This document shows positions 1 to 33,391 of a stretch of DNA of 64,000 bases, one piece after another. The notes under the pieces were generated by a model. The model was not told where the DNA came from and made no database searches. It saw only the letters and a list, made by a program, of their open reading frames with translations. Position 1 is the first letter of the stretch; every line of letters starts with the position of its first letter. Origin of the DNA: a virus (lineage: Duplodnaviria > Heunggongvirae > Uroviricota > Caudoviricetes); the IMG/VR virus record IMGVR_UViG_3300044929_000080; one strand, written 5' to 3'. The position numbers and the translations under genes are program-made.

Positions 1-1434
1 ATGCTGAATTCAATTCTTGATTCACGCTCTGGGAAAAAAGACCAGACGGTCAGAGGACTGGAAAGCTTACCAGACCTCCTTAAGAGTTACCTAGAAGTTG
101 AACAAATCAATAAATGGATTTTCCGTCGTGAAAAAGATGGGCAGCTTTATCCATATCTCGTTAAAGCCATTCAGATGTGCTCCGATGACAGTTTTCGTCA
201 GACAGACAAAGAAGATCAGTTTGTCATCATGCGCCTCGTCTCTTACAGCATTTGCGACGATGGAAAGATGGGAACAAAGTCCGAAACGATCTCGTTTCAT
301 CGGCATCACGTATCCAATCGCAGGATTTCCAAAATCCTGTCCGATTTTGATCTTTTCAAGGAGACAAAAGAACTGATCGCTGAGTACGAAGCTCAAGTGG
401 AGCGTTATCGTGAAATCATTATGCCTGGATTTTCGCAGCAATTTGTTGCCACCGGACAGACCGTAAAGATTGGCTATAGCGGCAAGGACACTTTTTTAAA
501 CAAAACACGCGTCATTCACGACCTGTCTTCAAAAGATTTTGGTGCTTATAACGACACCATGGACGCTGAGACGAAGACCAATCACAATGAAAGCTTCCCG
601 TGTCCATTGCATCCTATGGTCAAGGTTTTCGATCTTGAATCTCATGATTTCCATTGGATCAATGGCAATATGGTGGAGCCATATGTCTATAAAAACCTAC
701 TCAATCATCTGGTTTTGCCAGAAACCCATCACGACCTTCTGGAAATGCTTACTGATGACCTGACAGACTTCTCGAATGATTTCGTTGAAGGCAAGGCAGC
801 TGGAAACCTGATTATCTGTAAGGGGCCTCCAGGCGTCGGCAAAACGCTGACAGGTGAACTGTATTCAGAGCATAAAAAAGTGCCTCTAATCGTATTACGC
901 GCGGGCAAACTCGGCACTACGGTTGCTGAAGTCACAAAAGGAATGAAGCAATACCTGGAATGGGCCACGAGGTGGAATTGCCCTATCCTCGTTAATGAAT
1001 GCGATATCTACATTGCCAAGCGCAGTGATAATATCAATCTGAACGCAATCGTCGCCGAAATGCTGCAGTTGGTTGAGTACTATCCTGGCCTGCTCTTTAT
1101 GACGACAAATCGTCCTGACGATATCGATGATGCGTTCGTCAGTCGTGCGTTGGCAATTATCAATTACGCAGCACCTGAAGGAAATCTCGTGGACGAAAGC
1201 TGGCGTCAGATTGCTTCTCTTCATGATTTGAAAATGGACGAAACTATGATCATGTCTCTCAAACAGCAATTCCCAAGCATCGTTCAGAGAGACATGAAGA
1301 TGCTTCTGAAACTCGCAATGAAAAGATCGAAGCGCAGCCGAGAACCGATTACTCCAGACTTGCTACGCAAGATGGCAATGTTCCGAGACATCAAGATGTC
1401 GGCAATTGAATTAGGCACTCCAGATAACCAATAA
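1..1434 (+). CDS. AAA+ ATPase (classic clade) with unknown ~250-aa N-domain; may be 5'-truncated by window edge
   Basis: Walker A GPPGVGKT, Walker B-like LVNECD, sensor-1 TTN, Arg-finger region DDAFVSRA (FtsH/p97-like second region of homology). Confidence 0.75.
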   Translation: MLNSILDSRSGKKDQTVRGLESLPDLLKSYLEVEQINKWIFRREKDGQLYPYLVKAIQMCSDDSFRQTDKEDQFVIMRLVSYSICDDGKMGTKSETISFHRHHVSNRRISKILSDFDLFKETKELIAEYEAQVERYREIIMPGFSQQFVATGQTVKIGYSGKDTFLNKTRVIHDLSSKDFGAYNDTMDAETKTNHNESFPCPLHPMVKVFDLESHDFHWINGNMVEPYVYKNLLNHLVLPETHHDLLEMLTDDLTDFSNDFVEGKAAGNLIICKGPPGVGKTLTGELYSEHKKVPLIVLRAGKLGTTVAEVTKGMKQYLEWATRWNCPILVNECDIYIAKRSDNINLNAIVAEMLQLVEYYPGLLFMTTNRPDDIDDAFVSRALAIINYAAPEGNLVDESWRQIASLHDLKMDETMIMSLKQQFPSIVQRDMKMLLKLAMKRSKRSREPITPDLLRKMAMFRDIKMSAIELGTPDNQ

Positions 1435-12441: not shown

Positions 12442-12590
12442 TATTGGCTTTGTCATGTAATAAACACTAAATACGCTAATCCCATTTTTTGCACGGCTTT
12501 TAATATTAAATAAGCTAAACAATCAGAACGTTTTAATTTGATACAAGACTTATTGAAGGGAGATGTCTCGTTTAGCGAGCAATTTACGTC

Positions 12591-14726
12591 ATGGAAAAAT
12601 CGAAGCGAGTTCTATTTCTAACTGAAAAATGGCAAGGACGCGTCATGGAGCGCTCCAACGACGACCATTCCAGGAAGAAAGAGTTCAAAGGTGTGGAAAC
12701 CCTTGTTTCGCTCGATCCGACCCCTCGCAGTGAATATCTGGATTGGATTTGCCGCACTTATGTCGGTCAATCATTCCTAATCGAAGACGCTGACCGCGTC
12801 TCCAACACCCTCACCATATTTCATCGATTCAAACGCCGCTTGCCTGTTGCACAGCGTGACATTGGTCGTATCAAAAACGAACAGGATCTATGGGAGATCG
12901 TAGAACGCTTCATTCCTCATAACGGGGAGGAAGAACCAGTCGAAGGCAAGGAGTTGAAGCGTCAGGAAAAGGCAACGGCGATAAGCGAAAGCGACATCCT
13001 GGAAAGTACCGACCTCGAAGGCTGGATTGTTGCTTCTCCTGTTACACATTTTGCAGCTCGATGGTGGTCCAGAGGAACACGCTGGTGCACAGGCATGAAG
13101 AACCCAGCGCATTTCAATAGATACGCAATCAACGGACCTTTGCGCGTATTCATCTCGCCTTCTGGGGATAAATTTCAGGCGCATATTGCCACATTTACGT
13201 TCTGCGACGCTGCAGATCGACAGATCGATAAAAACAAATTCCTTTCCAGTATTCCCAAATCCGCGCTCGAATTGTTGCAAGGCGATGTCATCCAATCTTT
13301 TGACAACCTAGGTAATATCACAACTATTCCAGCGCTTTTAAGATCAGAAGGAATGATTGAAAAGGCAAAGAAAGCAGGTTTTGATAAGGCTGTCACCATC
13401 GCTGAAAACAAGGGCGGTTACGCGCTCAAGTTTTTGCCATCCATGCTGTCTATGTGGGCTTATGGACTGGCCGAAGAATCTGATTTCAGACGTGGCGAGC
13501 AGCGGGCTGACATCGCGCTCTTTCATGGCGGTGAAGTGCTCGCAAGATACTTTGTCGCCAATCACTACGGAATTGCTCTTGGAAATGAAATCAAGAAGAC
13601 GGCAGACGTTGAATTCATTCAACAAGCGGCCAACGGCATGATGTGTCTATGGGAGAAAAACTCGATTTTCGCTGAGGGATTTCTCGTTGGAGTAAAAGAC
13701 GCGTTTGCAGAGGATTTCTTCACTCAAAAGACTTGGGACGTCTATTTCGCACAGGCTTCCAAAAAACAACGAGGAAAGAGCGTTTTCGAAATCAAGCCGG
13801 ATGTAGTAACCGACGAGATGGCAAATGCGTTGGCCAGACATAACCTGCTCACGATACTTCCGCTTTCATTGGTGACGCCAGAGCGCGTCGACATTTTCGT
13901 ATCAGAGACACCTGAGCACATTAGCCGCATTACTCACATCGGCCTCGATCACATGATTTCTGATGAGGCGATCAAACAGGCCGCACGCTGGAAAAAAGGC
14001 AAAGGCCTCGCCTTCATTCCTTTCGAACGATTGAACCAAGAATTATTCCGTAGTGTCGTCGAGGAGTTCCCTACGGCCATCTGTCACGTTGACGAGCGAT
14101 ATCTAACAACAGAACTGATCGACAGGGTTGTATGTGTAACTCCGAATGTAGTGTTCAACATTCCAAAACGTTTTGTGACCGAGGAACTGCTGATCAAAGC
14201 CGTTTCTATTCAAGGCAACCTGTATCAACAGCTAAAACCTGAATGGCGAACCCCGTCAGTGACAGAAGTCGCGTTACGCGTCTCGCCCAACGTCTTCGTC
14301 AACACGGACTGCGAATTGACTTACCAGCAATTCCTCGACGGCGTAGCACTATCAGGTAGCACGCTCTCACGCGTTCCTCTGATTTATCGTACAATTGAGA
14401 TGTGCGAAGCCGCATTGAGCTTCAATATCAGCGAGGCAATCAGCCACGTCCCTCCTCCCATACTTAAAACAATCAAGCAGAAAGTCGACGCCAACACTGG
14501 AACGCTGTTTGAAGAAAAGATCAGAAATTGGAACCGCCCGATTTCAAAACGCTATGCTGCATCAGATCCAATCCATTCCTTCTACCCTGATGAGGCAACG
14601 ATCTTGCCCGAGCGTCTGAAAAAACTAATGCACGGCGACAAAACGGAGATTTACACCGATCCAGAAGGCTTGCTCGTTCGCGACCCAGAAATGAAAAATG
14701 CCCAGGCACTCGCTATGTCAATATAG
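12591..14726 (+). CDS. large hypothetical protein, paralog A; conserved N-module + C-terminal DUF4116-like repeats
   Basis: About 50% identity to 14795..17047 over first ~235 aa (REYxDWxCRTYV, LPVxQRDIGR, WWxRGTRWCT, KxQAHIA). C-terminus has ~25-aa repeats T-x-E-L/M-C-x-x-A. Confidence 0.65.
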   Translation: MEKSKRVLFLTEKWQGRVMERSNDDHSRKKEFKGVETLVSLDPTPRSEYLDWICRTYVGQSFLIEDADRVSNTLTIFHRFKRRLPVAQRDIGRIKNEQDLWEIVERFIPHNGEEEPVEGKELKRQEKATAISESDILESTDLEGWIVASPVTHFAARWWSRGTRWCTGMKNPAHFNRYAINGPLRVFISPSGDKFQAHIATFTFCDAADRQIDKNKFLSSIPKSALELLQGDVIQSFDNLGNITTIPALLRSEGMIEKAKKAGFDKAVTIAENKGGYALKFLPSMLSMWAYGLAEESDFRRGEQRADIALFHGGEVLARYFVANHYGIALGNEIKKTADVEFIQQAANGMMCLWEKNSIFAEGFLVGVKDAFAEDFFTQKTWDVYFAQASKKQRGKSVFEIKPDVVTDEMANALARHNLLTILPLSLVTPERVDIFVSETPEHISRITHIGLDHMISDEAIKQAARWKKGKGLAFIPFERLNQELFRSVVEEFPTAICHVDERYLTTELIDRVVCVTPNVVFNIPKRFVTEELLIKAVSIQGNLYQQLKPEWRTPSVTEVALRVSPNVFVNTDCELTYQQFLDGVALSGSTLSRVPLIYRTIEMCEAALSFNISEAISHVPPPILKTIKQKVDANTGTLFEEKIRNWNRPISKRYAASDPIHSFYPDEATILPERLKKLMHGDKTEIYTDPEGLLVRDPEMKNAQALAMSI

Positions 14727-14794
14727 AGAGGTCGCGAAACCAGAGTCTGGTTTCATGCAAGGTAAAATGGTCTCCTGATCAAAGGAGATTTTAT

Positions 14795-17047
14795 ATGGCA
14801 ATTACACCGAGACTGCTGTTCCTCAGAAACAAATGGAACGCGCGATTGATCGAAAGGCAGGCTACAGATAGCTCGCATCCACAGGACGCCAATCCGATGG
14901 ACTTTCTGATTGATGTCGACCCAACGAAGAAGCGCGAGTACACCGACTGGCTATGCCGAACATACGTCTCGGGCAATTTTCGCTACGAAGACCGCGAACG
15001 CGTAAAGTTTACACTCGAACTTTTCAATCTGCACAAACACCGCCTCCCTGTCGAACAGCGCGACATCGGACGCATGAGAACCGAGCAGGATGTATGGCAT
15101 ATCGTCGAAAATTATTTACCGAAGGATGACGAAGAAGAACCAACGCCTGCTGGACGAGAGAAAAGACGCCAGGAACGTGCAAAGGCTTTGGCTGAAAGCG
15201 AGATTGATGATAGCGAATTGAGCGGTGATTGGATTATCGCATCCCCCAACACTCATTTCGCAAGCCAATGGTGGGGAAGAGGTACGCGCTGGTGTACGGC
15301 TATGAAAACACCTGAGAATTTCGATGCCTATATGGTATCTAGTCCTCTTCGCATTTTTATATCTCCTGATGGCAGCAAATTACAGGCTCATATAGCCTCT
15401 ATGACAATCTGCGACGAAGAGGATATTCCGCTTGATTTTAAGACTGTTGCGAAACAATTACCTGTTGCAGCAATCGAGCTTCTTAGATGCGATTTAATCC
15501 AATGTATCCATAAAGCCGATCCGGCTGTACTTGATTATCCTGACAGGACTCCAAAAGAGCTATTGGACGATAATACAACAAAGGCACTCATAAAGAAGCT
15601 GGAGGAGTTTTCTTTAATTAAGGTGAATTCGACCAATGGTGCATGGTCATTGAGAATACTCGAAAATAAATATTCAGAATGGCTAAGGCATTTGCATAAA
15701 GACGCAAGTATCCCAAAACAAATAGGATACGCTCGACAGGAAGGATCTGTCGTATATCTGTCTGAAAATAATAAGGTGACAAATGCATTCCCTTTTCACA
15801 GCAGAAAAATGGACAAGGACAACACAGACAAGACTCTGAATGCAATTGTGAAAACTAATGATAAAGCATTTATCAAAGAATGCGCTGATGAACTTATGGA
15901 TGCTTGGCGAGTTAAAATGTTAGGCTCGAATATAGTTAATCAATTCATGGCCGCTATTCCTGACGATTGTAAAACTGACAATTTTTGGAAAGCATACACA
16001 GAAGGATTCGCTGCCTATACAAGAAATAAGGATTTCATTTCGCCACCTGAGCAATATCTGAATGAAAATAACATTAGAAACATCGCGCTGTTTAATCTTC
16101 CGAGAGTTCCACTTCATAAGATCACAAAGGAAATTTTGAAAGAAGGACTATACAGCTCAGGATCAGATGGAAAGATATTTGCCAAAAACAACGATTTATT
16201 CAGACTCATAAATGAAGAAGAAATCATTGAATTTGCGACGTCTGGTAAAGGTGCAGATGTTGAGTTTCTTCCCGAAAAACACATAACACCAAAATTAGCT
16301 AAATATTATGTTGAGGCCAGACCAGCGCACATTGGACACCTTGATCTTGCTACCGATTTTAACTCAACGGGCCGCAGTGCGATAACAGAAGAGTTGTGTT
16401 TCAGGGCTATTGAACTCTCGCAGGCAGCGATAAGTTCAATTCCTAGGAGAATGCTGACGCCAGAAATGTGTATTTACGCAATTGAACATCACAGATTTGC
16501 TATTAATGATATACCGAAAAACATGAGAACAGTTGAGATGTATGTTGAAAGCATTCGGCGCGAGCCAGACACTATTTCACATGTTCATACTGATAAAGTT
16601 TTGATCCCCTATGAAACCTTTTTGTCTGCTGTTTCAAGCAACTCCAGCCATCTTGGAATTGTTCCATTACCATATAGAACGACAGAGATGTGTACCGCCG
16701 CCATCAACAGCATAACCAAAAATGATGTCGACGATTTATCGCCACACATCGCCGAAAAGAACCGAATTGGTAAAATGGAAGAAATTTTAAAACACGTGCC
16801 GCCGAAAGTTGCACATCAAATACCAGCATTCAAAGAAATAATGGAATTACGCTCCAATAATACGAATTTTATAGCACGAGGATATGCCAATGACATCCAC
16901 ATAATGAATTTTGAACCTTATGATCAAATTCCAGAAGCCTTACCAATATTATTCAAGGATTCAAAATCAAAAGAGTATCAGAGTTTACCAATGAATGTTA
17001 TGGAAATTATGGAAGAATTTGAAGAAAAGATTTGCCCGAAACTATAG
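14795..17047 (+). CDS. large hypothetical protein, paralog B; conserved N-module + C-terminal DUF4116-like repeats
   Basis: AAAGGAG RBS; N-terminal homology to 12591..14726; C-terminal repeats (LTPEMCIYAIEHH..., RTTEMCTAAINS...). Confidence 0.7.
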   Translation: MAITPRLLFLRNKWNARLIERQATDSSHPQDANPMDFLIDVDPTKKREYTDWLCRTYVSGNFRYEDRERVKFTLELFNLHKHRLPVEQRDIGRMRTEQDVWHIVENYLPKDDEEEPTPAGREKRRQERAKALAESEIDDSELSGDWIIASPNTHFASQWWGRGTRWCTAMKTPENFDAYMVSSPLRIFISPDGSKLQAHIASMTICDEEDIPLDFKTVAKQLPVAAIELLRCDLIQCIHKADPAVLDYPDRTPKELLDDNTTKALIKKLEEFSLIKVNSTNGAWSLRILENKYSEWLRHLHKDASIPKQIGYARQEGSVVYLSENNKVTNAFPFHSRKMDKDNTDKTLNAIVKTNDKAFIKECADELMDAWRVKMLGSNIVNQFMAAIPDDCKTDNFWKAYTEGFAAYTRNKDFISPPEQYLNENNIRNIALFNLPRVPLHKITKEILKEGLYSSGSDGKIFAKNNDLFRLINEEEIIEFATSGKGADVEFLPEKHITPKLAKYYVEARPAHIGHLDLATDFNSTGRSAITEELCFRAIELSQAAISSIPRRMLTPEMCIYAIEHHRFAINDIPKNMRTVEMYVESIRREPDTISHVHTDKVLIPYETFLSAVSSNSSHLGIVPLPYRTTEMCTAAINSITKNDVDDLSPHIAEKNRIGKMEEILKHVPPKVAHQIPAFKEIMELRSNNTNFIARGYANDIHIMNFEPYDQIPEALPILFKDSKSKEYQSLPMNVMEIMEEFEEKICPKL

Positions 17048-17286
17048 GGAATGCACTGGTAGTGGTAAGCTGTTACCGGATAGTTGTCTTAAGCAAAATA
17101 TTGATCGACGATCATATTAAAACATTATGGAGATTAAAATATGAGCGAAGAAACCATCTCTCTCTCGCCACATAACTCCTGACGCCAGATTACGGCTATG
17201 AAGGCGACAGCATAGTAACCGTTCGACGTCCTGAAGCCACACCATCATCGCCAGGCCTGTGAAACTTGAAAAGTGACGTATATGAA

Positions 17287-17316
17287 AAGGCGGCTGTTGA
17301 GCCGCCTTCATTGTTT
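17287..17316. terminator. bidirectional rho-independent terminator between convergent operons
   Basis: AAGGCGGC-TGTTGA-GCCGCCTT hairpin flanked by A-tract upstream and T-tract downstream. Confidence 0.6.
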
Positions 17317-17348
17317 TAAATCACTCAATGAAGAGCTTTACCAGGCCG

Positions 17349-17570
17349 TTATCGAGCGCCCTCTATCACAGGCGTATGCGCTTTCGCACGGTACCGTAGA
17401 GAAGTAGTGTACGAGGTTCCAACAAATGTATGGGCTTTCACATAATGATTATAAAGGGTGTCGGTGTCCGATGAAGTGACCTTTTGGAAACCATAATCCC
17501 AAGCGAACATAGCGCAGACGAACAGTGTCAGGAAAACAATAATCGTGGATGATTGTCTAGTTTGATCCAT
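17349..17570 (-). CDS. small membrane protein (73 aa) translationally coupled to upstream gene
   Basis: ATG overlaps TGA stop of 17570..19000 (TGATGG). N-terminal TM IIVFLTLFVCAMFAW. The longer 109-aa ORF in the track is an out-of-frame extension. Confidence 0.4.
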   Translation of the reverse strand: MDQTRQSSTIIVFLTLFVCAMFAWDYGFQKVTSSDTDTLYNHYVKAHTFVGTSYTTSLRYRAKAHTPVIEGAR

Positions 17571-19000
17571 CAGAAGCCACCGCCAGTTGATGAATCTCCA
17601 CCGCCAAATCCGCCTCCAGAGGACCACGATGATGAACCTCCAAAGCCACCGCTGTCGGACGAAGATGACGATCCCCAAGAAGATGAGCCACTTGAGCTAT
17701 CCCAAGAACTAGAGCTGGTCGATGAACTGCGAACTCGTGGAGAATAGTAATCCTCTGTCTGTCGATGGGAGCGTTGTACCGCATCCCAGAACACGGAAGC
17801 TGTGATCACACCGGTTGCAAGATTCTCAATCGTCCGATCATCGAGCTTGTCGCTGAATCGGTCAGAAGAACCACTCCAACCACGACGACGAAGCATACTT
17901 TCGGCATCATCCAACTCCTTCATACGTTTTTCAAACTCAAGTTTACCAGGCTGGAGATGCAGGATCTGCACACTAATATTCTTGTGATTAGCCTCCAGAG
18001 CGCTGATCTGTGCAACGATCTGATCGTCCTCTTTACCCTCAGTCTTTCGTGCCAAAGCGTAAAGATCGCTGATGCCGAGCTTCGCCATCTGTTCAGCATA
18101 GGTCTTTGTAATCCGGAACAGATCATCATCGGTCGCAAGGGCCGCTTCAGAAATGTATTCAGACGCTTGTCGGACGTCACCACGAAGCACCGAAATTTCG
18201 TTGTCGATCTGCTTTAGTGATTTGTTTGATGCATCGACCTTTTCCTTAAGCGCAAAAACGTGTTCGTGGGTCTTTTGATAGATTGCCTCCAATGAAGACA
18301 CATCAGACTTGTGATCTTCATTAACTTTATGAATACGTTCATTGAACCATTCAGGAATAGCATGCAAAATATCGTAATCACCTTTCTTGCGCTTGAATGA
18401 GATCAAGTTCGCAAGCCAGCCATCGATACGTGCAGTCAAACCAAAACTATTATATTCGGATTCTCCATAATTTCGCTTGATCAGGTACGAAAAGAACGGG
18501 TCCTCTTCATACGCAACACGCTTTTCAGAAAGCTCTGATTGTGCGCGTTCCATCTTGCGGACGAGGCTTCCAATAACCTCATTAACGCTGGCCAGATGGC
18601 TTCGCAAACGAATAGCTTCTGGATCTTCTTCGTAACGAAGATTGGCTGCCTTATTGGCCTTATCGTAAACTTCGAAAGCTGCATTCGTATCGCGGGCAAC
18701 ACCCTCTCTCTGATCGCGAAGATCATTGATCTTTTGTTCAGCCGCTTTAATTTTGGCCTTGGAATCGTTGATGCGCTGATCACGAGAACGCAACATGTTT
18801 TCGATGTTTTTAGGCAGAGCGACGTCCTGCTTCAAATGCATTGAAGCCAATTGCTGGAGAAGTCGTGCCTGCTCCTGAACGACGCCGCTCAGTTCACGTT
18901 CAAGACCAGCGATCTGACTCGTTACAATGCGAGCCTGTCTCTGAACTTCATCACGCTTGCTAGCAAGTTTATGAGAAATTTCTCTTCCTGTTGTAGCCAT
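17570..19000 (-). CDS. coiled-coil protein with C-terminal Gly/Ser-rich low-complexity tail
   Basis: Heptad-rich helical N-terminal half. C-terminal ~50 aa SSTSSSSWDSSSGSSSWGSSSSSDSGGFGGSSSWSSGGGFGGGDSSTGGGF. Confidence 0.6.
   Translation of the reverse strand: MATTGREISHKLASKRDEVQRQARIVTSQIAGLERELSGVVQEQARLLQQLASMHLKQDVALPKNIENMLRSRDQRINDSKAKIKAAEQKINDLRDQREGVARDTNAAFEVYDKANKAANLRYEEDPEAIRLRSHLASVNEVIGSLVRKMERAQSELSEKRVAYEEDPFFSYLIKRNYGESEYNSFGLTARIDGWLANLISFKRKKGDYDILHAIPEWFNERIHKVNEDHKSDVSSLEAIYQKTHEHVFALKEKVDASNKSLKQIDNEISVLRGDVRQASEYISEAALATDDDLFRITKTYAEQMAKLGISDLYALARKTEGKEDDQIVAQISALEANHKNISVQILHLQPGKLEFEKRMKELDDAESMLRRRGWSGSSDRFSDKLDDRTIENLATGVITASVFWDAVQRSHRQTEDYYSPRVRSSSTSSSSWDSSSGSSSWGSSSSSDSGGFGGSSSWSSGGGFGGGDSSTGGGF
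17572..17730 (-). repeat. low-complexity coding tract (G/S-rich tail)
   Basis: Reiterated gcc/acc/gga/tcc triplets on + strand encoding Gly/Ser/Trp repeats on - strand. Confidence 0.6.
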
Positions 19001-19015
19001 CTGAATATCCCTTCC

Positions 19016-20206
19016 TTACCAGCCCGTGATCATCTGATTTTTTTGCTGTGGAATTGACCACTTGAATTCCAGAGTTCCGGCAGGCTTCTCGCCGACTTCA
19101 AAATCATCGATGACACCATCAGATTGCTTGTCTTGACCAACTTTGTTGTAAGTCTTTTCAGGAACACGGATGCCCCAATGAGTCACGGTCTCGGTATTGC
19201 CTGTTTCAAAGCTCTTTATTGGAAAAGACACCGCAACGCCGTTTACGTCCAACGCCTCGACAATCAAATAATATACTTTGGTCCGATTATTATCCGGCGT
19301 GCGCCAGACACCTGAACGAACTCCTGCACGATCAACAATACGAAGCATCAAAGGTGTTTGGATGCGATTTACCTGTTCATCCAGGTTTCGTTTGGCTGCA
19401 GAAAATGCAACCTCGTCACCCTTCTTAGCGGCGATTTCAATCCGATAAAAATAGGGTTCCAACGAACGTTTAGCGCCATCATCCATAGGCTTTGCTGACA
19501 CTTCGTTTTTCAACGTTTCAAGTTCAGACTGCAAAATTGCAATTGCAGCTTTAGCCTTAAGTGAAGATGCCATTTCATTCAGAGTGACAATATTCTTGCG
19601 CGCATCATCGACACGTTTGGCATCAATAAACTGTTGAGTAGCATCACGAAGATTATCAGAATGGGCCTTGGCAACATCGTCATTATATTCTTCGGCAGCT
19701 GAAATGGCCGCCGTATGAGCGCTCTTCAATGCTTGGGGAAGACGAGTTTCGACATCAAGTTTCAATTCAGCTGCAATGCGATCTTGTTCTGCTTTCGCCG
19801 CGATTTCAGCCCGTTCACGAGGCTTTACCACGAACTCGCTATGAATAAATAAGGCCGATCCATAAATAAATGCTACCGATGCGACCGCAGCTGCAGATCG
19901 TGCTGCAATTTTCCCGCGATTAATCCACATCCGCGCAAGTAGACGAGAAAATCCAGGTGCAAGCGGCTCATGAACATAGCGATTTTTGTCCATATCTTCG
20001 ACAGCACGATTAATAATTTCGTCAGAAACAAGCATTCCTTGCGATTCATACCACTGTCGAAGTTTAGCCTTGAGTGCCGAACGACGATCATCGGAAAGAA
20101 TTTCCGTTTCCTGAATGGCCATTTCATGACGAATTGTATCGACAGTATCTGCCGCCATTAAAACGTCTTCCATCGAAGGCGTATTTTTCACTGCAATAGC
20201 TGACAT
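19016..20206 (-). CDS. hypothetical protein with single N-terminal TM helix, helical middle and beta-rich C-domain
   Basis: TM IAARSAAAVASVAFIYGSALFI; 15-nt spacing to downstream gene. Confidence 0.55.
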   Translation of the reverse strand: MSAIAVKNTPSMEDVLMAADTVDTIRHEMAIQETEILSDDRRSALKAKLRQWYESQGMLVSDEIINRAVEDMDKNRYVHEPLAPGFSRLLARMWINRGKIAARSAAAVASVAFIYGSALFIHSEFVVKPRERAEIAAKAEQDRIAAELKLDVETRLPQALKSAHTAAISAAEEYNDDVAKAHSDNLRDATQQFIDAKRVDDARKNIVTLNEMASSLKAKAAIAILQSELETLKNEVSAKPMDDGAKRSLEPYFYRIEIAAKKGDEVAFSAAKRNLDEQVNRIQTPLMLRIVDRAGVRSGVWRTPDNNRTKVYYLIVEALDVNGVAVSFPIKSFETGNTETVTHWGIRVPEKTYNKVGQDKQSDGVIDDFEVGEKPAGTLEFKWSIPQQKNQMITGW

Positions 20207-20272
20207 TAAGCTTTAATTCCTTATTAAAACAAATAGCATGAGGCCAGAACCATTCCAGCCTCATGCGGAGAA

Positions 20273-21457
20273 TTAAACGTTTACAGTCACGGTCTGAGCC
20301 TTGCCATTGGAGACAAGGTCAGCAATCCGGCGCTTGCCATCTTCGACGTAATCACGAATTTCCTTCGCGTTCTGTTCAGATTCCCTACGCATATCAGAAA
20401 TAATCTTGGTGCTGTTTTCTTGGAACTCGACAACAGAATCGACCAGCTTCTTTACCGACTGGGCGCGAATGCTCGGGCCATAGCCCTTACGGAGCGCATT
20501 TTCGGTAATCTTCGTGCCAACGTCAGCGATACTTTCAAGGCTTTTGGAAATTCCGTCATGCATCGCATCGAGCGCCTGCGTTGCTTCGTGAAGCCCCATA
20601 AGCCCCGTATAAGTCGCCTTGAGCGCCGTGAGAACTGAACTATTCGTACTCATAAATGCAACAGACTGCTTGAAAAGGCGATCTTTCGCCATATGCGATT
20701 CAGCAAGCTTCGCCATAGTCACTTCGGTTACAGAATAAGAAACCTGCAGATTATTGGCGAGGTCGGTCGCAATCTGCCAGCGATCTTCGACGGCCTTTGC
20801 GGCGCGCTGGGCTTCATCGCGCTCAAGTTCGAGACGGCTCTTTTCCTGCGGAGATGCGTCAGATGCCTGCTGCACCAGCACCATTGCATCCGCTACCTTC
20901 GTCTGTGCGGCCTTGAGGTCCTCATCGAGGATCGCCTTGACTTCGTATGCGATGATTTCAGCTTCCTTGATAGAACTGCGGAAATCAGCATAAGCTTCGA
21001 GAATAGCACTCTCTCGTTCAACCTGAACGCCAACGTCCTTGATCACTTCGTCAAAAGTCTTGCGGATAGCATCAAAACGATCAGAAATGTCGCCGCGAGT
21101 AAGCTTCATGACAACATTCGACACTCGGTCACCAACGGTTGGTGCAGAACGCTCAGCCTGCGATACAAGACGTTTGGAGTCATCACGAATACTGTCGAAA
21201 CGCTTGACGATATCATCGAAACGACCGCCAAAATTGATCTGTGAAATCTGGCTTGCTACCAAGCTGTCGAAATTTTGCTGGTGTGAAAGAGTACGGGCAA
21301 TAACGAGAACTCGATCTTCATCTACATCAGAAATGCGCTTTAATAGCGCAACAATTGGAGCTGTACCTGTGTCGGGCGTACCGACGCCGAGCACCTTCAA
21401 GCTATCAAGAGCTTTCTGAAGGTATTTTGGAGCCGCAGATTTAATCATATCGTTCAT
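20273..21457 (-). CDS. TelA-like (toxic anion resistance family) helical protein, tentative
   Basis: ~390-aa all-helical protein with N-terminal region and coiled-coil segments; the TelA assignment is from overall resemblance only. Confidence 0.4.
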   Translation of the reverse strand: MNDMIKSAAPKYLQKALDSLKVLGVGTPDTGTAPIVALLKRISDVDEDRVLVIARTLSHQQNFDSLVASQISQINFGGRFDDIVKRFDSIRDDSKRLVSQAERSAPTVGDRVSNVVMKLTRGDISDRFDAIRKTFDEVIKDVGVQVERESAILEAYADFRSSIKEAEIIAYEVKAILDEDLKAAQTKVADAMVLVQQASDASPQEKSRLELERDEAQRAAKAVEDRWQIATDLANNLQVSYSVTEVTMAKLAESHMAKDRLFKQSVAFMSTNSSVLTALKATYTGLMGLHEATQALDAMHDGISKSLESIADVGTKITENALRKGYGPSIRAQSVKKLVDSVVEFQENSTKIISDMRRESEQNAKEIRDYVEDGKRRIADLVSNGKAQTVTVNV

Positions 21458-32098: not shown

Positions 32099-33391
32099 TT
32101 AATTAGGCTGGATAGTCTCAAGCCCACCCATATACGAACGTAACGAGGTCGGAACCGTGATGGTGCCGTCTTCGTTCTGATAATTCTCCATGATCGCGAT
32201 CAGGAGACGCCCGACAGCGACCCCGGAACCATTGAGCGTATGAACGAATTGTGTACCCTTCTGGCCCCTTACCTTGTGACGGGCATTCATGCGACGGGCC
32301 TGGAAGTCACCGCAATACGAGCAGCTTGAAATCTCACGGTAGGTCTTCTGGCCTGGTACCCAGACTTCGATGTCGTAGGTTTTGCGAGCGCTAAAGCCCA
32401 TATCGCCGCCGCAGAGTAGCATTACGCGGTACGGAAGCTCGAAAGCCTGCAGGATAGCCTCAGCAGCGCCTAGCATGCGCTCCAGTTCCACTTCGCCGTC
32501 CTCTTCCTTCACAATCGATACCAGCTCGACCTTATTGAACTGATGCTGCCGTAGAATACCTCGGACGTCACGGCCAGCCGATCCTGCTTCCGAACGGAAA
32601 CATGGCGTAAGCGCAGTAAACCGTAGCGGCAAGCTTTCCGTCTCCACGATCTGATCGGAAACCAGATTGGTAAGCGAGACCTCAGCTGTTGGGATCAGGT
32701 AACGGCCATCCGTCGTTTTAAAGAGATCTTCTTCAAATTTGGGAAGCTGTCCTGTGCCGAACATTGCGGTTTCGCGAACCAGCAGAGGCACCTGACATTC
32801 CTCGTAACCGTGCTTGCTTGCCATATCTAGCATAAACTGACCAAGCGCACGTTCCAGCTTAGCAATACCTCCACGAAGAACAACAAAGCGGGAACCCGAG
32901 ATGCGACCAGCGCTCTCGAAATCTAGACCGCCAAGTTCTTCACCAAGCTCAAAATGCTGTTTTGGCAAAAAACCCATTTCAGGGATCAATCCAACCGTCC
33001 GTACAAGAACATTGTCTTTCTCATCAACGCCAGCAGGTACACTATCGAGTGGCAAGTTAGGGAAAGTGGCAAGTCGATCAATCAGAGCGTCACCAACCGC
33101 TTTCGCTTTAACTTCCAGCGAGGAGATGGCTTCCTTCAAGGTTGCCACATCTTGCTTAAGAGCATCGCCGGAAGCCTTGTCACCTGCTTTATAAAAGGCT
33201 CCAATTTTCGATGAAAGAACCTTTACCTCATGATTTTTGGTTTCAATTTCCGAATTCGATTCATTGACGATATCACGGGAATCGCGAACAAATCCAAAAA
33301 TGAACAGCGCCTCATCACGCGTATAACCACGCTTCTCAAGGCCTGCAATAAATGCTTCCTCATTATCAATAATTGTTTTTGCGTTATGCAT
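32099..33391 (-). CDS. serS: seryl-tRNA synthetase (class II)
   Basis: N-terminal coiled-coil arm. Class II motif 2 FRSEAGSAGRDVRGILRQHQFNKVELV. GQLPKFEEDLFK. Motif 3 region GSGVAVGRLLIAIMENYQ. Confidence 0.9.
   Translation of the reverse strand: MHNAKTIIDNEEAFIAGLEKRGYTRDEALFIFGFVRDSRDIVNESNSEIETKNHEVKVLSSKIGAFYKAGDKASGDALKQDVATLKEAISSLEVKAKAVGDALIDRLATFPNLPLDSVPAGVDEKDNVLVRTVGLIPEMGFLPKQHFELGEELGGLDFESAGRISGSRFVVLRGGIAKLERALGQFMLDMASKHGYEECQVPLLVRETAMFGTGQLPKFEEDLFKTTDGRYLIPTAEVSLTNLVSDQIVETESLPLRFTALTPCFRSEAGSAGRDVRGILRQHQFNKVELVSIVKEEDGEVELERMLGAAEAILQAFELPYRVMLLCGGDMGFSARKTYDIEVWVPGQKTYREISSCSYCGDFQARRMNARHKVRGQKGTQFVHTLNGSGVAVGRLLIAIMENYQNEDGTITVPTSLRSYMGGLETIQPN

What the first reader, a model, noticed from the sequence alone, without database searches (positions are those of the whole stretch)
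12591..17047. Tandem giant paralogs: conserved N-module, divergent repeat-rich C-termini
Two adjacent 711/750-aa ORFs share about 50% identity over the first ~235 aa. Conserved motifs there include W-W-x-R-G-T-R-W-C-T and L-P-V-x-Q-R-D-I-G-R, which I cannot assign to a known family. They then diverge into different arrays of ~25-aa repeats (T-x-E-L/M-C-x-x-A-I...IP...) resembling DUF4116. A constant N-terminal module with a variable C-terminal repeat module is the pattern of effector, polymorphic-toxin or surface-recognition families. Each gene has its own RBS. A bidirectional terminator follows the pair.
Basis: seen in the sequence. Interest (0 to 1): 0.7.

Follow-up and report, generated by a model that had tools for sequence, protein, structure and literature searches.

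The report
Duplicated phage-type head plus DUF4116 repeats
Two neighbouring genes in an uncultured alphaproteobacterium are old duplicates encoding a conserved, uncatalogued "head" domain that is mostly found in phages, joined to a degenerate helical-repeat tail; they are stable, constrained chromosomal genes, not the toxin or effector cassette first suspected, and their function is unknown.

Summary
ORF1 (12591-14726, 711 aa) and ORF2 (14795-17047, 750 aa) are paralogs (BLASTP E 3e-106). They are 49% identical over the first 240 aa and 20-29% beyond.

The C-termini are not different arrays. The proteins are collinear along their whole length, and both carry the same degenerate DUF4116-type 24-residue repeats (aa ~473-640). 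These fall below Pfam's threshold but are clear by profile methods.

The pair sits at a conserved housekeeping site. The duplication predates at least four lineages, and a more distant relative has one copy. Every region is under purifying selection (dN/dS 0.07-0.35). There is no signal peptide, TM segment, toxin domain or conserved immunity gene. The effector, polymorphic-toxin and surface readings are therefore not supported.

Best reading: a domesticated phage-type head (catalytic or docking) with an alpha-solenoid binding tail. Function is unknown.

The parts
12591..14726 (+). ORF1, 711 aa: head + middle region + DUF4116-type repeats + tail. The ATG at 12591 is supported by conservation of the first 18 codons in orthologs, although gene callers often start at M19 (693 aa).
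12591..12986 (+). ORF1 head, helical subdomain (aa 1-132), with invariant D42-P43, W52, E65-D66 and the LPVAQRDIGR motif (nt 12840-12869).
   Evidence: AF2 model, pLDDT 93.9; invariant columns
12987..13310 (+). ORF1 head, alpha/beta core (aa 133-240). Contains the WWSRGTRWCT loop (nt 13062-13091), Y178, K194, Q196 and D209. This is the minimal unit that occurs alone or repeated in some relatives, and the part that resembles PcfJ.
13311..14006 (+). ORF1 middle region (aa 241-472). Fastest-evolving part (20% identity to ORF2), with only vestigial repeat matches at aa 243-286 and 401-441.
14007..14426 (+). ORF1 degenerate DUF4116-type 24-residue repeats (aa 473-612, about 6 units).
   Evidence: orthologous position hits Pfam DUF4116 in P0004/P0005
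14769..14790 (+). Hairpin in the ORF1-ORF2 spacer pairing ORF2's Shine-Dalgarno (AGGAG, 14783-14787) with an upstream anti-SD (TCTCCT). Conserved in all five lineages that have the pair.
14795..17047 (+). ORF2, 750 aa: paralog of ORF1 with the same layout. Head aa 1-241 (nt 14795-15517), WWGRGTRWCT at nt 15269-15298.
16220..16708 (+). ORF2 degenerate DUF4116-type repeats (aa 476-638, about 6-7 units).
12555..12579 (+). SD-like GAAGGGAG (12555-12562) followed by a small stem-loop (12567-12579), ~29 nt upstream of ORF1's ATG. The arrangement is conserved in 4 of 5 lineages. Possible split RBS.
17074..17259 (+). Decayed remnant (internal stop and indels) of a 94-aa acidic ORF that is intact just downstream of the pair in L025 and L030.
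17287..17308 (.). GC-rich hairpin (9 bp, 6 GC) with A/T runs on both sides, between the convergent ORF2 and the minus-strand operon. Plausible bidirectional terminator.

Best explanation
ORF1 and ORF2 are an anciently duplicated, vertically inherited pair of chromosomal genes in an uncultured Hyphomicrobiales-like alphaproteobacterium. Each encodes a soluble protein with no export signal, built in three parts.

1. A ~220-240-aa N-terminal head: a helical subdomain plus an alpha/beta core carrying the near-invariant G-T-R-W-C-T loop. It belongs to a very large, uncurated family that is mostly phage or virus borne and is probably a distant branch of the PcfJ-like superfamily.
2. A fast-evolving middle region.
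3. About six degenerate DUF4116-type 24-residue repeats, expected to form an alpha-solenoid.

Shown: the homology, architecture, family size and viral bias, synteny, duplication timing and purifying selection.

Inferred: the head is the conserved working unit. Its many invariant polar and aromatic residues (D42, E65-D66, T163, W165, C166, T167, Y178, K194, Q196, D209) fit a catalytic or ligand/machinery-docking site better than a mere scaffold. The solenoid tail would be a binding platform that chooses the partner or substrate. On this view the ancestral gene was captured from a phage and domesticated. After duplication, the two copies kept the head and diverged in the middle and tail regions, giving two specificities. 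They may work together, because relatives often fuse 2-5 heads in one polypeptide.
For: Paralogy and layout:
- BLASTP is collinear, E 3e-106. The head is 49% identical.

Family size and composition:
- 4,280 representatives at E<=1e-3 and 1,802 at <=1e-10.
- Nearly all annotated relatives are head + PF13475.
- 20 of 150 representatives carry 2-5 heads in one protein.
- One metagenomic contig is a head-to-tail array of at least 12 paralogs.

Viral bias:
- 432 IMG/VR stretches against 19 loci in genome contigs.
- 13 phage records, including PA5oct gp EST35_0205, annotated as an MS-detected 'structural protein', and CcrBL9 gp486.
- BFVD Foldseek gives 22 hits at E<=1e-3, including Marseillevirus MAG proteins with ankyrin tails.
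- The head is N-terminal in 89% of viral ORFs.

Structure:

PcfJ link:
- Pfam PF14284 hits the head core of P0079 (27.4 bits, cutoff 25) and P0043.
- Foldseek matches PcfJ-like viral proteins at prob 0.66-0.90.
- hhalign recovers the expected register.

Tail:
-.

Domestication, age and constraint:
- Same locus with the pair in L001-3, L025, L026, L029 and L030; a single copy in L027/28.
- The tree places the ORF1 and ORF2 clades as sisters.
- dN/dS is 0.07-0.35 in every region.

Localisation:
- No signal peptide or TM segment.
Against: - No biochemical function is known for any member, nor for PcfJ (literature searches). The 'catalytic or docking head' is therefore inference from conservation only.
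- The PcfJ link is statistically weak in my own profile-profile test: score 18.5 against a shuffle maximum of 18.4, and HMM-versus-sequence searches were no better than decoys.
- The direction of transfer (phage to bacterium) is inferred from abundance, not from a rooted phylogeny.
- The alpha-solenoid nature of the tail in these two proteins was not modelled. It rests on homology to DUF4116 and on PMC8078820.
- H198, which could have completed a Cys-His-Asp triad, is not conserved.
Confidence: 0.55

Rival explanations
1. Secreted effectors or polymorphic toxins: a constant N-terminal trafficking module delivers variable C-terminal modules into a host or competitor cell.
For: - The family-wide pattern is a constant head with variable tails, with large lineage-specific expansions.
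- DUF4116, ankyrin and LRR tails are typical of host-interaction proteins.
- The low GC (~44%) and the deep-branching uncultured lineage could fit a host-associated lifestyle.
- A small acidic ORF follows the pair in two relatives.
Against: - No signal peptide or TM segment.
- No toxin domain or known trafficking domain.
- The tails of the two paralogs are homologous, and are conserved among orthologs with dN/dS 0.07-0.30.
- The small downstream ORF is decayed here and absent in L026 and L029.
- The locus is syntenic among housekeeping genes.
- No secretion-system genes were seen among the window proteins I scanned, but I scanned only part of the window.
Confidence: 0.1
2. A domesticated phage virion or ejection-protein module acting in phage-host conflict, either as defence or as anti-defence. 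The head would be a virion- or DNA-entry-associated anchor, as MuF is for MuF-fused toxins. The tail would be the cargo or sensor. The chromosomal pair would then recognise or decoy phage components.
For: - Strong viral predominance.
- The PA5oct homolog is annotated as a virion protein detected by ESI-MS/MS.
- pCF10 PcfJ overlaps an AcrIIA9-family gene next to DpnD/PcfM and ssb, just past the relaxase gene.
- PcfJ-like domains precede DGR-diversified regions in CPR bacteria (PMC5758913).
- The paralog array in L042 lies next to a SocA_Panacea gene.
Against: - PADLOC finds nothing in either protein.
- The neighbours are RNase J, DsbB, an SPFH protein and AddAB, not a defence island.
- The locus is stable, under low dN/dS, and shows no sign of an arms race.
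- The many invariant polar residues fit an active or binding site better than a passive anchor.
- The link to PcfJ is itself weak.
Confidence: 0.2
3. Surface-recognition or adhesin proteins displaying variable repeats on the cell surface.
For: A repeat-rich C-terminus; paralog divergence is concentrated outside the head.
Against: No signal peptide, lipobox, TM segment or autotransporter/anchor domain. The N-terminus is charged and forms part of a conserved folded helix. Cys-rich alpha-solenoid repeats of this type are typical of intracellular proteins.
Confidence: 0.03
4. Chance ORFs or decaying pseudogenes with no function.
For: No curated family hit. ORF1 lacks a canonical RBS.
Against: - Both ORFs are intact and syntenic in at least five lineages.
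- dN/dS is 0.07-0.35.
- The exact proteins appear on 124-142 metagenomic contigs.
- The AF2 model is highly confident.
Confidence: 0.01

Closest known systems
DUF4116 domain-containing proteins (Pfam PF13475), e.g. the Archangium primigenium 705-aa protein P0242
   Same: Same two-part architecture: the same N-terminal head followed by 24-residue repeats with consensus LQYVPEEYRTPELCRLAVEQNG. DUF4116 is modelled in the literature as an alpha-solenoid (PMC8078820).
   Different: - In the window proteins the repeats are few (~6) and too degenerate to reach Pfam's threshold.
- They are separated from the head by a ~230-aa middle region that canonical members lack.
- Pfam and NCBI describe only the repeat. 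The head, which is the more conserved and more widespread part, has no model or name.
PcfJ-like domain (Pfam PF14284; PcfJ of Enterococcus faecalis plasmid pCF10; widespread in Herelleviridae phages)
   Same: - Similar core pattern: strand, P-x-[ST], helix, G-x-x-x-[WH]-C, then Y, G, beta-strands.
- The Pfam PcfJ model hits the head core of family members P0079 and P0043.
- Foldseek matches viral PcfJ-like models at prob 0.66-0.90.
- Both occur mainly on phages and mobile elements, in multidomain proteins.
- Both are functionally uncharacterised.
   Different: - The window proteins do not hit PF14284.
- Profile-profile support is no better than the shuffled controls.
- In PcfJ proteins the domain is C-terminal (aa 287-433 of 447). 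Here it is N-terminal, preceded by a helical subdomain with its own invariant motifs (DPT..W, ED, RDI).
- Canonical PcfJ occurs on plasmids and Firmicutes phages. No plasmid in PLSDB carries this head.
PHROG families phrog_28193 and phrog_17056 (unknown function); Pseudomonas jumbo phage PA5oct gp EST35_0205 and Caulobacter phage CcrBL9 gp486
   Same: The same head domain: hmmsearch E 2e-67 and 6e-41, tblastn E 1e-21, Foldseek E 2.6e-15 and 1.3e-13.
   Different: The phage proteins are shorter (482 and 249 aa) and have unrelated tails or none. The PA5oct protein is annotated as virion-associated. The window genes are chromosomal, syntenic and duplicated.
MuF-fused polymorphic toxins, and F-box/PRANC-ankyrin proteins of large viruses (analogy only; from my own knowledge of these families)
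   Same: They share the logic of a constant N- or C-terminal docking module joined to a variable binding or effector module, expanded in mobile elements and viruses.
   Different: No sequence or structural relationship was detected. No toxin domain or immunity gene is present here. This analogy was not tested further.

Membership tests
DUF4116 (PF13475) | Match to the Pfam HMM at or above the gathering score (24.9 bits) | tested here: not met
   No hit for either ORF even at E<=1. Close orthologs P0231 and P0232 also have none.
DUF4116 (PF13475) | Tandem ~24-residue repeats with the [LIVM]P-x4-T-x-E-[LM]-C-x2-A-[IV] signature, homologous to those of bona fide members | tested here: met
   Repeat HMM built from canonical members scores 28.8 / 63.3 bits against a shuffle maximum of 4.4. 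hhalign prob 95-98%, E 3e-12 to 5e-8. Single-copy relatives P0004 and P0005 reach Pfam significance at the homologous position.
DUF4116 (PF13475) | Alpha-solenoid fold of the repeat region | not tested
The solenoid fold is taken from PMC8078820.
PcfJ-like (PF14284) | Match to the Pfam HMM at or above the gathering score (25 bits) | tested here: not met
   No hit for ORF1 or ORF2, nor for PA5oct or CcrBL9. It is met only by the distant family member P0079 (27.4 bits); P0043 falls below (21.9 bits).
PcfJ-like (PF14284) | Profile-profile homology to genuine PcfJ domains | tested here: inconclusive
   hhalign gives the expected register, but the score of 18.5 (P 0.05) equals the best of 40 column-shuffled controls. 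My PcfJ profile had only 11 sequences.
PcfJ-like (PF14284) | Shared fold with PcfJ-like proteins | tested here: inconclusive
   Foldseek against BFVD hits 7 PcfJ-like proteins at E 2e-3 to 5e-2, prob 0.66-0.90, TM ~0.27. No solved PcfJ structure turned up in my PDB searches.
Unnamed 'WWGRGTRWCT head' family (phrog_28193 / phrog_17056; no Pfam model) | Significant profile match over the ~35-220 core, with the invariant D-P, E-D, G-T-x-W-C-T, Y, K-x-Q and D positions | tested here: met
   The family was defined from the window proteins: 4,280 hits. Invariant columns are shared with bacterial and viral members. PHROG E 2e-4.
Polymorphic toxin systems | N-terminal secretion or trafficking domain (e.g. 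LXG, RHS, WXG100, PT-TG, MuF) | tested here: not met
   No such domain in Pfam or NCBIfam. No signal peptide.
Polymorphic toxin systems | C-terminal toxin domain that varies between strains, followed by a cognate immunity gene | tested here: not met
   The tails are repeats, not toxin domains. Orthologous tails are 84-95% identical, omega 0.07-0.30. The downstream small ORF is decayed or absent.
Known anti-phage defence systems (PADLOC-DB) | Match to a defence-system protein model | tested here: not met
   0 families for both ORFs at E<=1.

The most novel reading that the evidence does not exclude
The ~220-aa head is a previously undescribed enzymatic or machinery-docking domain of phage origin, with a fold not represented in the PDB. 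Phages, jumbo-phage virions and giant viruses would use it as a universal 'handle' for variable binding tails. Bacteria such as this alphaproteobacterium would then have captured it and fixed it as a core chromosomal function. If so, the window pair would be a tractable domesticated example for working out what thousands of phage proteins do.
Probability: 0.3. Interest if true: 0.65.

Novelty: new variant of a known kind. Interest (0 to 1): 0.42.

Why it matters
The head domain defines one of the larger protein families that still lack any curated model, structure or function. It has at least 4,280 clusters at 50% identity and hundreds of phage contigs. It also occurs in a jumbo-phage protein annotated as virion-associated and in giant-virus MAGs. 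Public databases label these proteins only by their repeat tail ('DUF4116 domain-containing' or 'hypothetical').

Recognising the head as the conserved unit gives three things:
- a seed for a new family model;
- a testable set of invariant residues;
- a clean natural experiment in domestication and subfunctionalisation: single copy, then a tandem pair, at a fixed chromosomal site.

It also removes a false lead, because this locus is not a toxin or effector cassette.

Tried and rejected
- **Word-indexed search.** Searching with the single N-module returned zero hits, although identical proteins are in that database. This is a sensitivity artefact. The exhaustive HMMER search and the profile search overturned the first impression that the module is rare.
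- **First AF2 run.** With a 2-sequence alignment it was useless (pLDDT 45). I redid it with 64 sequences.
- **Structure comparisons.** The AFDB fold library was unavailable. PDB sequence searches with single proteins and with profiles gave nothing.
- **Cys-His-Asp triad (papain/NlpC-like).** Rejected, because H198 is replaced by F/W/Q in many members and no papain-like fold hit appeared.
- **Barnase / RNase Sa2.** The Foldseek hits are insignificant (E>1, TM 0.13).
- **PD-(D/E)xK reading of D..K.Q..D.** The motif order does not fit.
- **PcfJ tests.** Comparing pCF10 PcfJ as a single sequence with the head profile gave only a spurious match. An 11-sequence PcfJ profile gave no more than borderline support.
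- **The 94-aa downstream ORF as an immunity or partner gene.** Rejected, because it is not conserved.
- **Naming the organism.** Cluster names, Rfam (no RNA genes in the window) and genome contigs (species absent) all failed. Only SerRS gave order-level placement.
- **Literature.** Searches for PcfJ function found nothing.

Full report
**1. The observation**

The ORF listing finds ORF1 at 12591-14726 (+, 711 aa) and ORF2 at 14795-17047 (+, 750 aa), exactly as reported.
- BLASTP aligns them collinearly over residues 1-688 / 1-728, at 31% identity and E 3e-106.
- The first 240 residues are 49% identical. Both quoted motifs are present: WW[SG]RGTRWCT and LPV[AE]QRDIGR.
- Identity by region is 48-50% in the head, 20% in the middle (aa 241-470), 29% in the repeat region and 23% in the tail.

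So the paralogy and the identity gradient are real. The tails, however, are one ancestral array that has diverged, not 'different arrays'.

ORF2 has a canonical AAGGAG 8 nt upstream of its ATG. ORF1's only SD-like element (GAAGGGAG) is about 29 nt from its ATG. That ATG is nevertheless supported by conservation of the first 18 codons in four other lineages. A GC-rich hairpin flanked by A/T runs lies at 17287-17308, 240 nt downstream of ORF2.

**2. The tail**

Pfam, NCBIfam and PADLOC return nothing for either protein. DUF4116 is not reported even at E<=1.
- In canonical relatives the region after the head is a crisp 24-residue repeat with consensus LQYVPEEYRTPELCRLAVEQNGLA.
- An HMM of that unit scores 28.8 bits (ORF1) and 63.3 bits (ORF2), against a maximum of 4.4 bits over 400 shuffled sequences.
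- hhalign of the clade alignment against the double unit gives 95-98% probability at ORF1 473-520, 521-565 and 577-612. Traces appear at 243-286 and 401-441.
- Single-copy relatives P0004 and P0005 reach Pfam significance for DUF4116 at the homologous position.

DUF4116 has been modelled as an alpha-solenoid (PMC8078820). I did not model the tail here.

**3. The head**

A word-indexed search with the single head found nothing. That was a sensitivity artefact. The exhaustive HMMER search with the two-sequence profile found 4,280 cluster representatives at E<=1e-3, 1,802 at <=1e-10 and 90 at <=1e-30.

Architecture across the family:
- Nearly all annotated relatives have the same head followed by PF13475.
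- Other members carry ankyrin, HEAT/LRV, WG-beta or LRR tails.
- 20 of the 150 best representatives contain 2-5 heads in one polypeptide.
- Some relatives contain only the alpha/beta core, roughly head positions 120-215.

Invariant or near-invariant positions, shared by bacterial and viral members, are: D42-P43, W52, E65-D66, R89, P150, T152, W158-W159, G162-T163, W165, C166, T167, Y178, K194, Q196 and D209.

With a 64-sequence alignment, AlphaFold2 gives a confident model (mean pLDDT 93.9, pTM 0.58). It has a helical subdomain (aa 1-132) and an alpha/beta subdomain (aa 133-240). It has no significant neighbour among solved structures:
- Foldseek against the PDB gives a best E of about 1.
- Profile searches of PDB sequences are empty.

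**4. Relationship to PcfJ**

Evidence for a link:
- Two family members hit Pfam PF14284 (PcfJ-like) precisely on the head core: P0079 at 27.4 bits (cutoff 25) and P0043 at 21.9 bits.
- In the viral fold library, after 22 strong family hits, there is a tail of matches to PcfJ-like proteins (E 2e-3 to 5e-2, prob 0.66-0.90).

I tested the link directly with a PcfJ profile of 11 sequences, taken from pCF10 PcfJ (domain at aa 287-433) and ten phage PcfJ domains.
- hhalign recovers the register I expected by eye (P-x-T ... G-x-x-x-[WH]-C ... Y ... G), but with a score of 18.5, P 0.05.
- That score equals the best of 40 column-shuffled controls. HMM-versus-sequence searches are no better than decoys.

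I therefore call the link probable but distant. The window proteins are not PcfJ members by Pfam's own criterion. I found no functional data on PcfJ.

Two contextual points are worth noting. In pCF10, pcfJ overlaps an AcrIIA9-family gene next to DpnD/PcfM and ssb, just past the relaxase gene. In CPR bacteria, PcfJ-like domains precede DGR-diversified regions (PMC5758913).

**5. Where the family lives**

- The head pattern scan found 432 confirmed stretches in IMG/VR viral contigs, many on contigs of 100-500 kb.
- It found only 19 loci in one genome for each of 185,579 bacterial and archaeal species. These were Archangium and Vitiosangium, several Devosia, a Hyphomicrobiales MAG, Pseudobdellovibrionaceae, Bacteroidia, Burkholderiales and Saccharibacteria. 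The two scans used slightly different patterns, so the ratio is approximate.
- No PLSDB plasmid carries it.
- GenBank phage hits are the PA5oct group of Pseudomonas jumbo phages and Caulobacter phage CcrBL9. The PA5oct protein (EST35_0205, 482 aa) is annotated 'structural protein, ESI-MS/MS' (hmmsearch E 2e-67).
- In the 80 best viral loci the head is N-terminal in 89% of ORFs, and the median protein length is 423 aa. Only 4 of 73 complete ORFs have DUF4116-type repeats. Ten loci carry two or more head genes side by side, up to five.
- Of 53 viral ORFs scanned, 44 have tails unknown to Pfam.
- A 42-kb metagenomic contig is a head-to-tail array of at least 12 head+DUF4116 genes.

So 'constant head, variable tail, prone to tandem amplification' is a true property of the family, and the family is mainly viral.

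**6. This locus**

SerRS in the window (32099-33391, minus strand) is only 58-66% identical to named Hyphomicrobiales/Rhizobiales. Closer relatives (86-94%) exist only in metagenomes. The host is therefore an uncultured, deep-branching alphaproteobacterium of about 44% GC.

The pair lies between RNase J-DsbB-SPFH on one side and a three-gene minus-strand operon (including DUF6384) followed by AddB/AddA-like genes on the other.
- The same arrangement, with both genes, recurs in L001-L003 (identical), L029, L030, L026 and L025.
- A more distant relative (L027/L028) has a single copy at the same site.
- A neighbour-joining tree places the ORF1 clade and the ORF2 clade as sisters, with the single-copy genes outside. 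The duplication therefore predates the split of these lineages, and both copies have been kept since.
- Against close relatives with unsaturated synonymous sites (L029, L030), dN/dS is 0.07-0.35 in every region of both genes, including the repeats (0.07-0.18) and the middle region (0.15-0.30).
- Neither protein has a signal peptide or a hydrophobic segment (maximum Kyte-Doolittle 19-residue mean 1.39).
- A six-frame scan finds no further copy of the head in the window.

**7. Interpretation**

Shown: this is an old, constrained, chromosomal pair of head+solenoid proteins from a large, uncurated, virus-dominated family.

Inferred:
- The head is the working unit. The density of invariant polar and aromatic residues across about 25%-identical sequences argues for a catalytic or specific docking site.
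- The solenoid tail is a binding platform.
- The ancestral gene was captured from a phage and domesticated.
- After duplication, the copies diverged mainly outside the head and acquired different partners. They may act together, given the frequent fusion of several heads in one protein.

The effector, polymorphic-toxin and surface readings fail their defining tests: no trafficking domain, no toxin domain, no conserved immunity gene, no tail hypervariability and no export signal. A conflict-related role (a phage entry or virion protein turned to defence or anti-defence) remains possible, but the neighbourhood and PADLOC do not support it.

**8. Novelty and score**

The proteins would be labelled 'hypothetical' or 'DUF4116 domain-containing' by current pipelines. 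What is new is recognising the head as a distinct, very large, mostly viral domain family without a model or a solved structural neighbour, probably a remote PcfJ-like branch, together with a clean case of its domestication and duplication. That is a new variant of a known kind, not a categorically new system. With no function in hand I rate interest at about 0.4.

Noticed in passing
window 14769-14790 (spacer between ORF1 and ORF2); also L025, L026, L029, L030: An 8-bp hairpin (GGTCTCCT-N6-AGGAGATT) pairs ORF2's Shine-Dalgarno with an upstream anti-SD. Both arms are conserved in all five lineages while the loop and the rest of the spacer vary. This is a candidate translational control of ORF2. 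A second hairpin (14734-14758) just after ORF1's stop is less conserved.
   Followed up: partly
window 12555-12590; also L025, L026, L029: ORF1's SD-like AAGGAG/GAAGGGAG lies ~29 nt upstream of the ATG, with a small stem-loop in between (CCTCG-N5-CGAGG; CTCG-N5-CGAG in the window). The arrangement is conserved in 4 of 5 lineages. It may be a split RBS brought into range by the hairpin.
   Followed up: partly
window 17074-17259: A decayed remnant (internal stop, indels; begins MSEETISLS at 17141) of a 94-aa acidic ORF. The ORF is intact immediately downstream of the pair in L025 (12579-12863) and L030 (12542-12826). It is absent from L026 and L029, and unrelated to the 83-aa ORF in L027.
   Followed up: yes
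window 12591-12986 and 14795-15190 versus L026: The first 132 codons of both ORF1 and ORF2 show much lower synonymous divergence from L026 (pS 0.40/0.46; 4-fold sites 0.42/0.31) than the rest of each gene (pS 0.76-0.89). The effect is not seen against L025. It could reflect mosaic recombination between lineages or synonymous constraint at the 5' ends.
   Followed up: no
window 17570-21457 (minus strand): A conserved three-gene operon next to the pair in all lineages: a 394-aa protein with no family hit, a 396-aa DUF6384 protein, and a 476-aa coiled-coil-like protein ending in a long Ser/Gly-rich tail. A small 73-aa gene is called at its 3' end in L001.
   Followed up: no
window 1-1434: The first ORF (477 aa, cut by the window edge) has a weak match to the anti-phage ATPase IteA model (E 9e-9, 34.9 bits against a cutoff of 510). 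This indicates only a generic ATPase similarity.
   Followed up: no
L042 (JGI 3300082510 contig, 42,070 bp): A head-to-tail array of at least 12 head+DUF4116 paralogs (355-630 aa) on one strand, preceded by a SocA_Panacea-domain gene. More than 20 paralogs from this one contig appear among the database hits.
   Followed up: partly
L031 (pCF10) 15874-17984: pcfJ (447 aa) overlaps by 10 nt a gene annotated 'Cas9 inhibitor AcrIIA9 family protein'. DpnD/PcfM and ssb are nearby, on the strand opposite to the relaxase gene. This is an anti-defence-like neighbourhood for the founding PcfJ member.
   Followed up: no
L027 / L028 (single-copy relative): Downstream of the single head+DUF4116 gene, this lineage has an AbiEii-family toxin gene and other inserted genes between it and the DUF6384 operon. 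The site therefore accepts insertions in some lineages.
   Followed up: no
L006, L018, L022 (genome-contig loci): Tandem pairs of head genes also occur in a Hyphomicrobiales MAG (279 + 325 aa), a Saccharibacteria MAG (492 + 461 aa) and a Bacteroidia genome. Devosia species carry head-only proteins of ~240 aa.
   Followed up: partly
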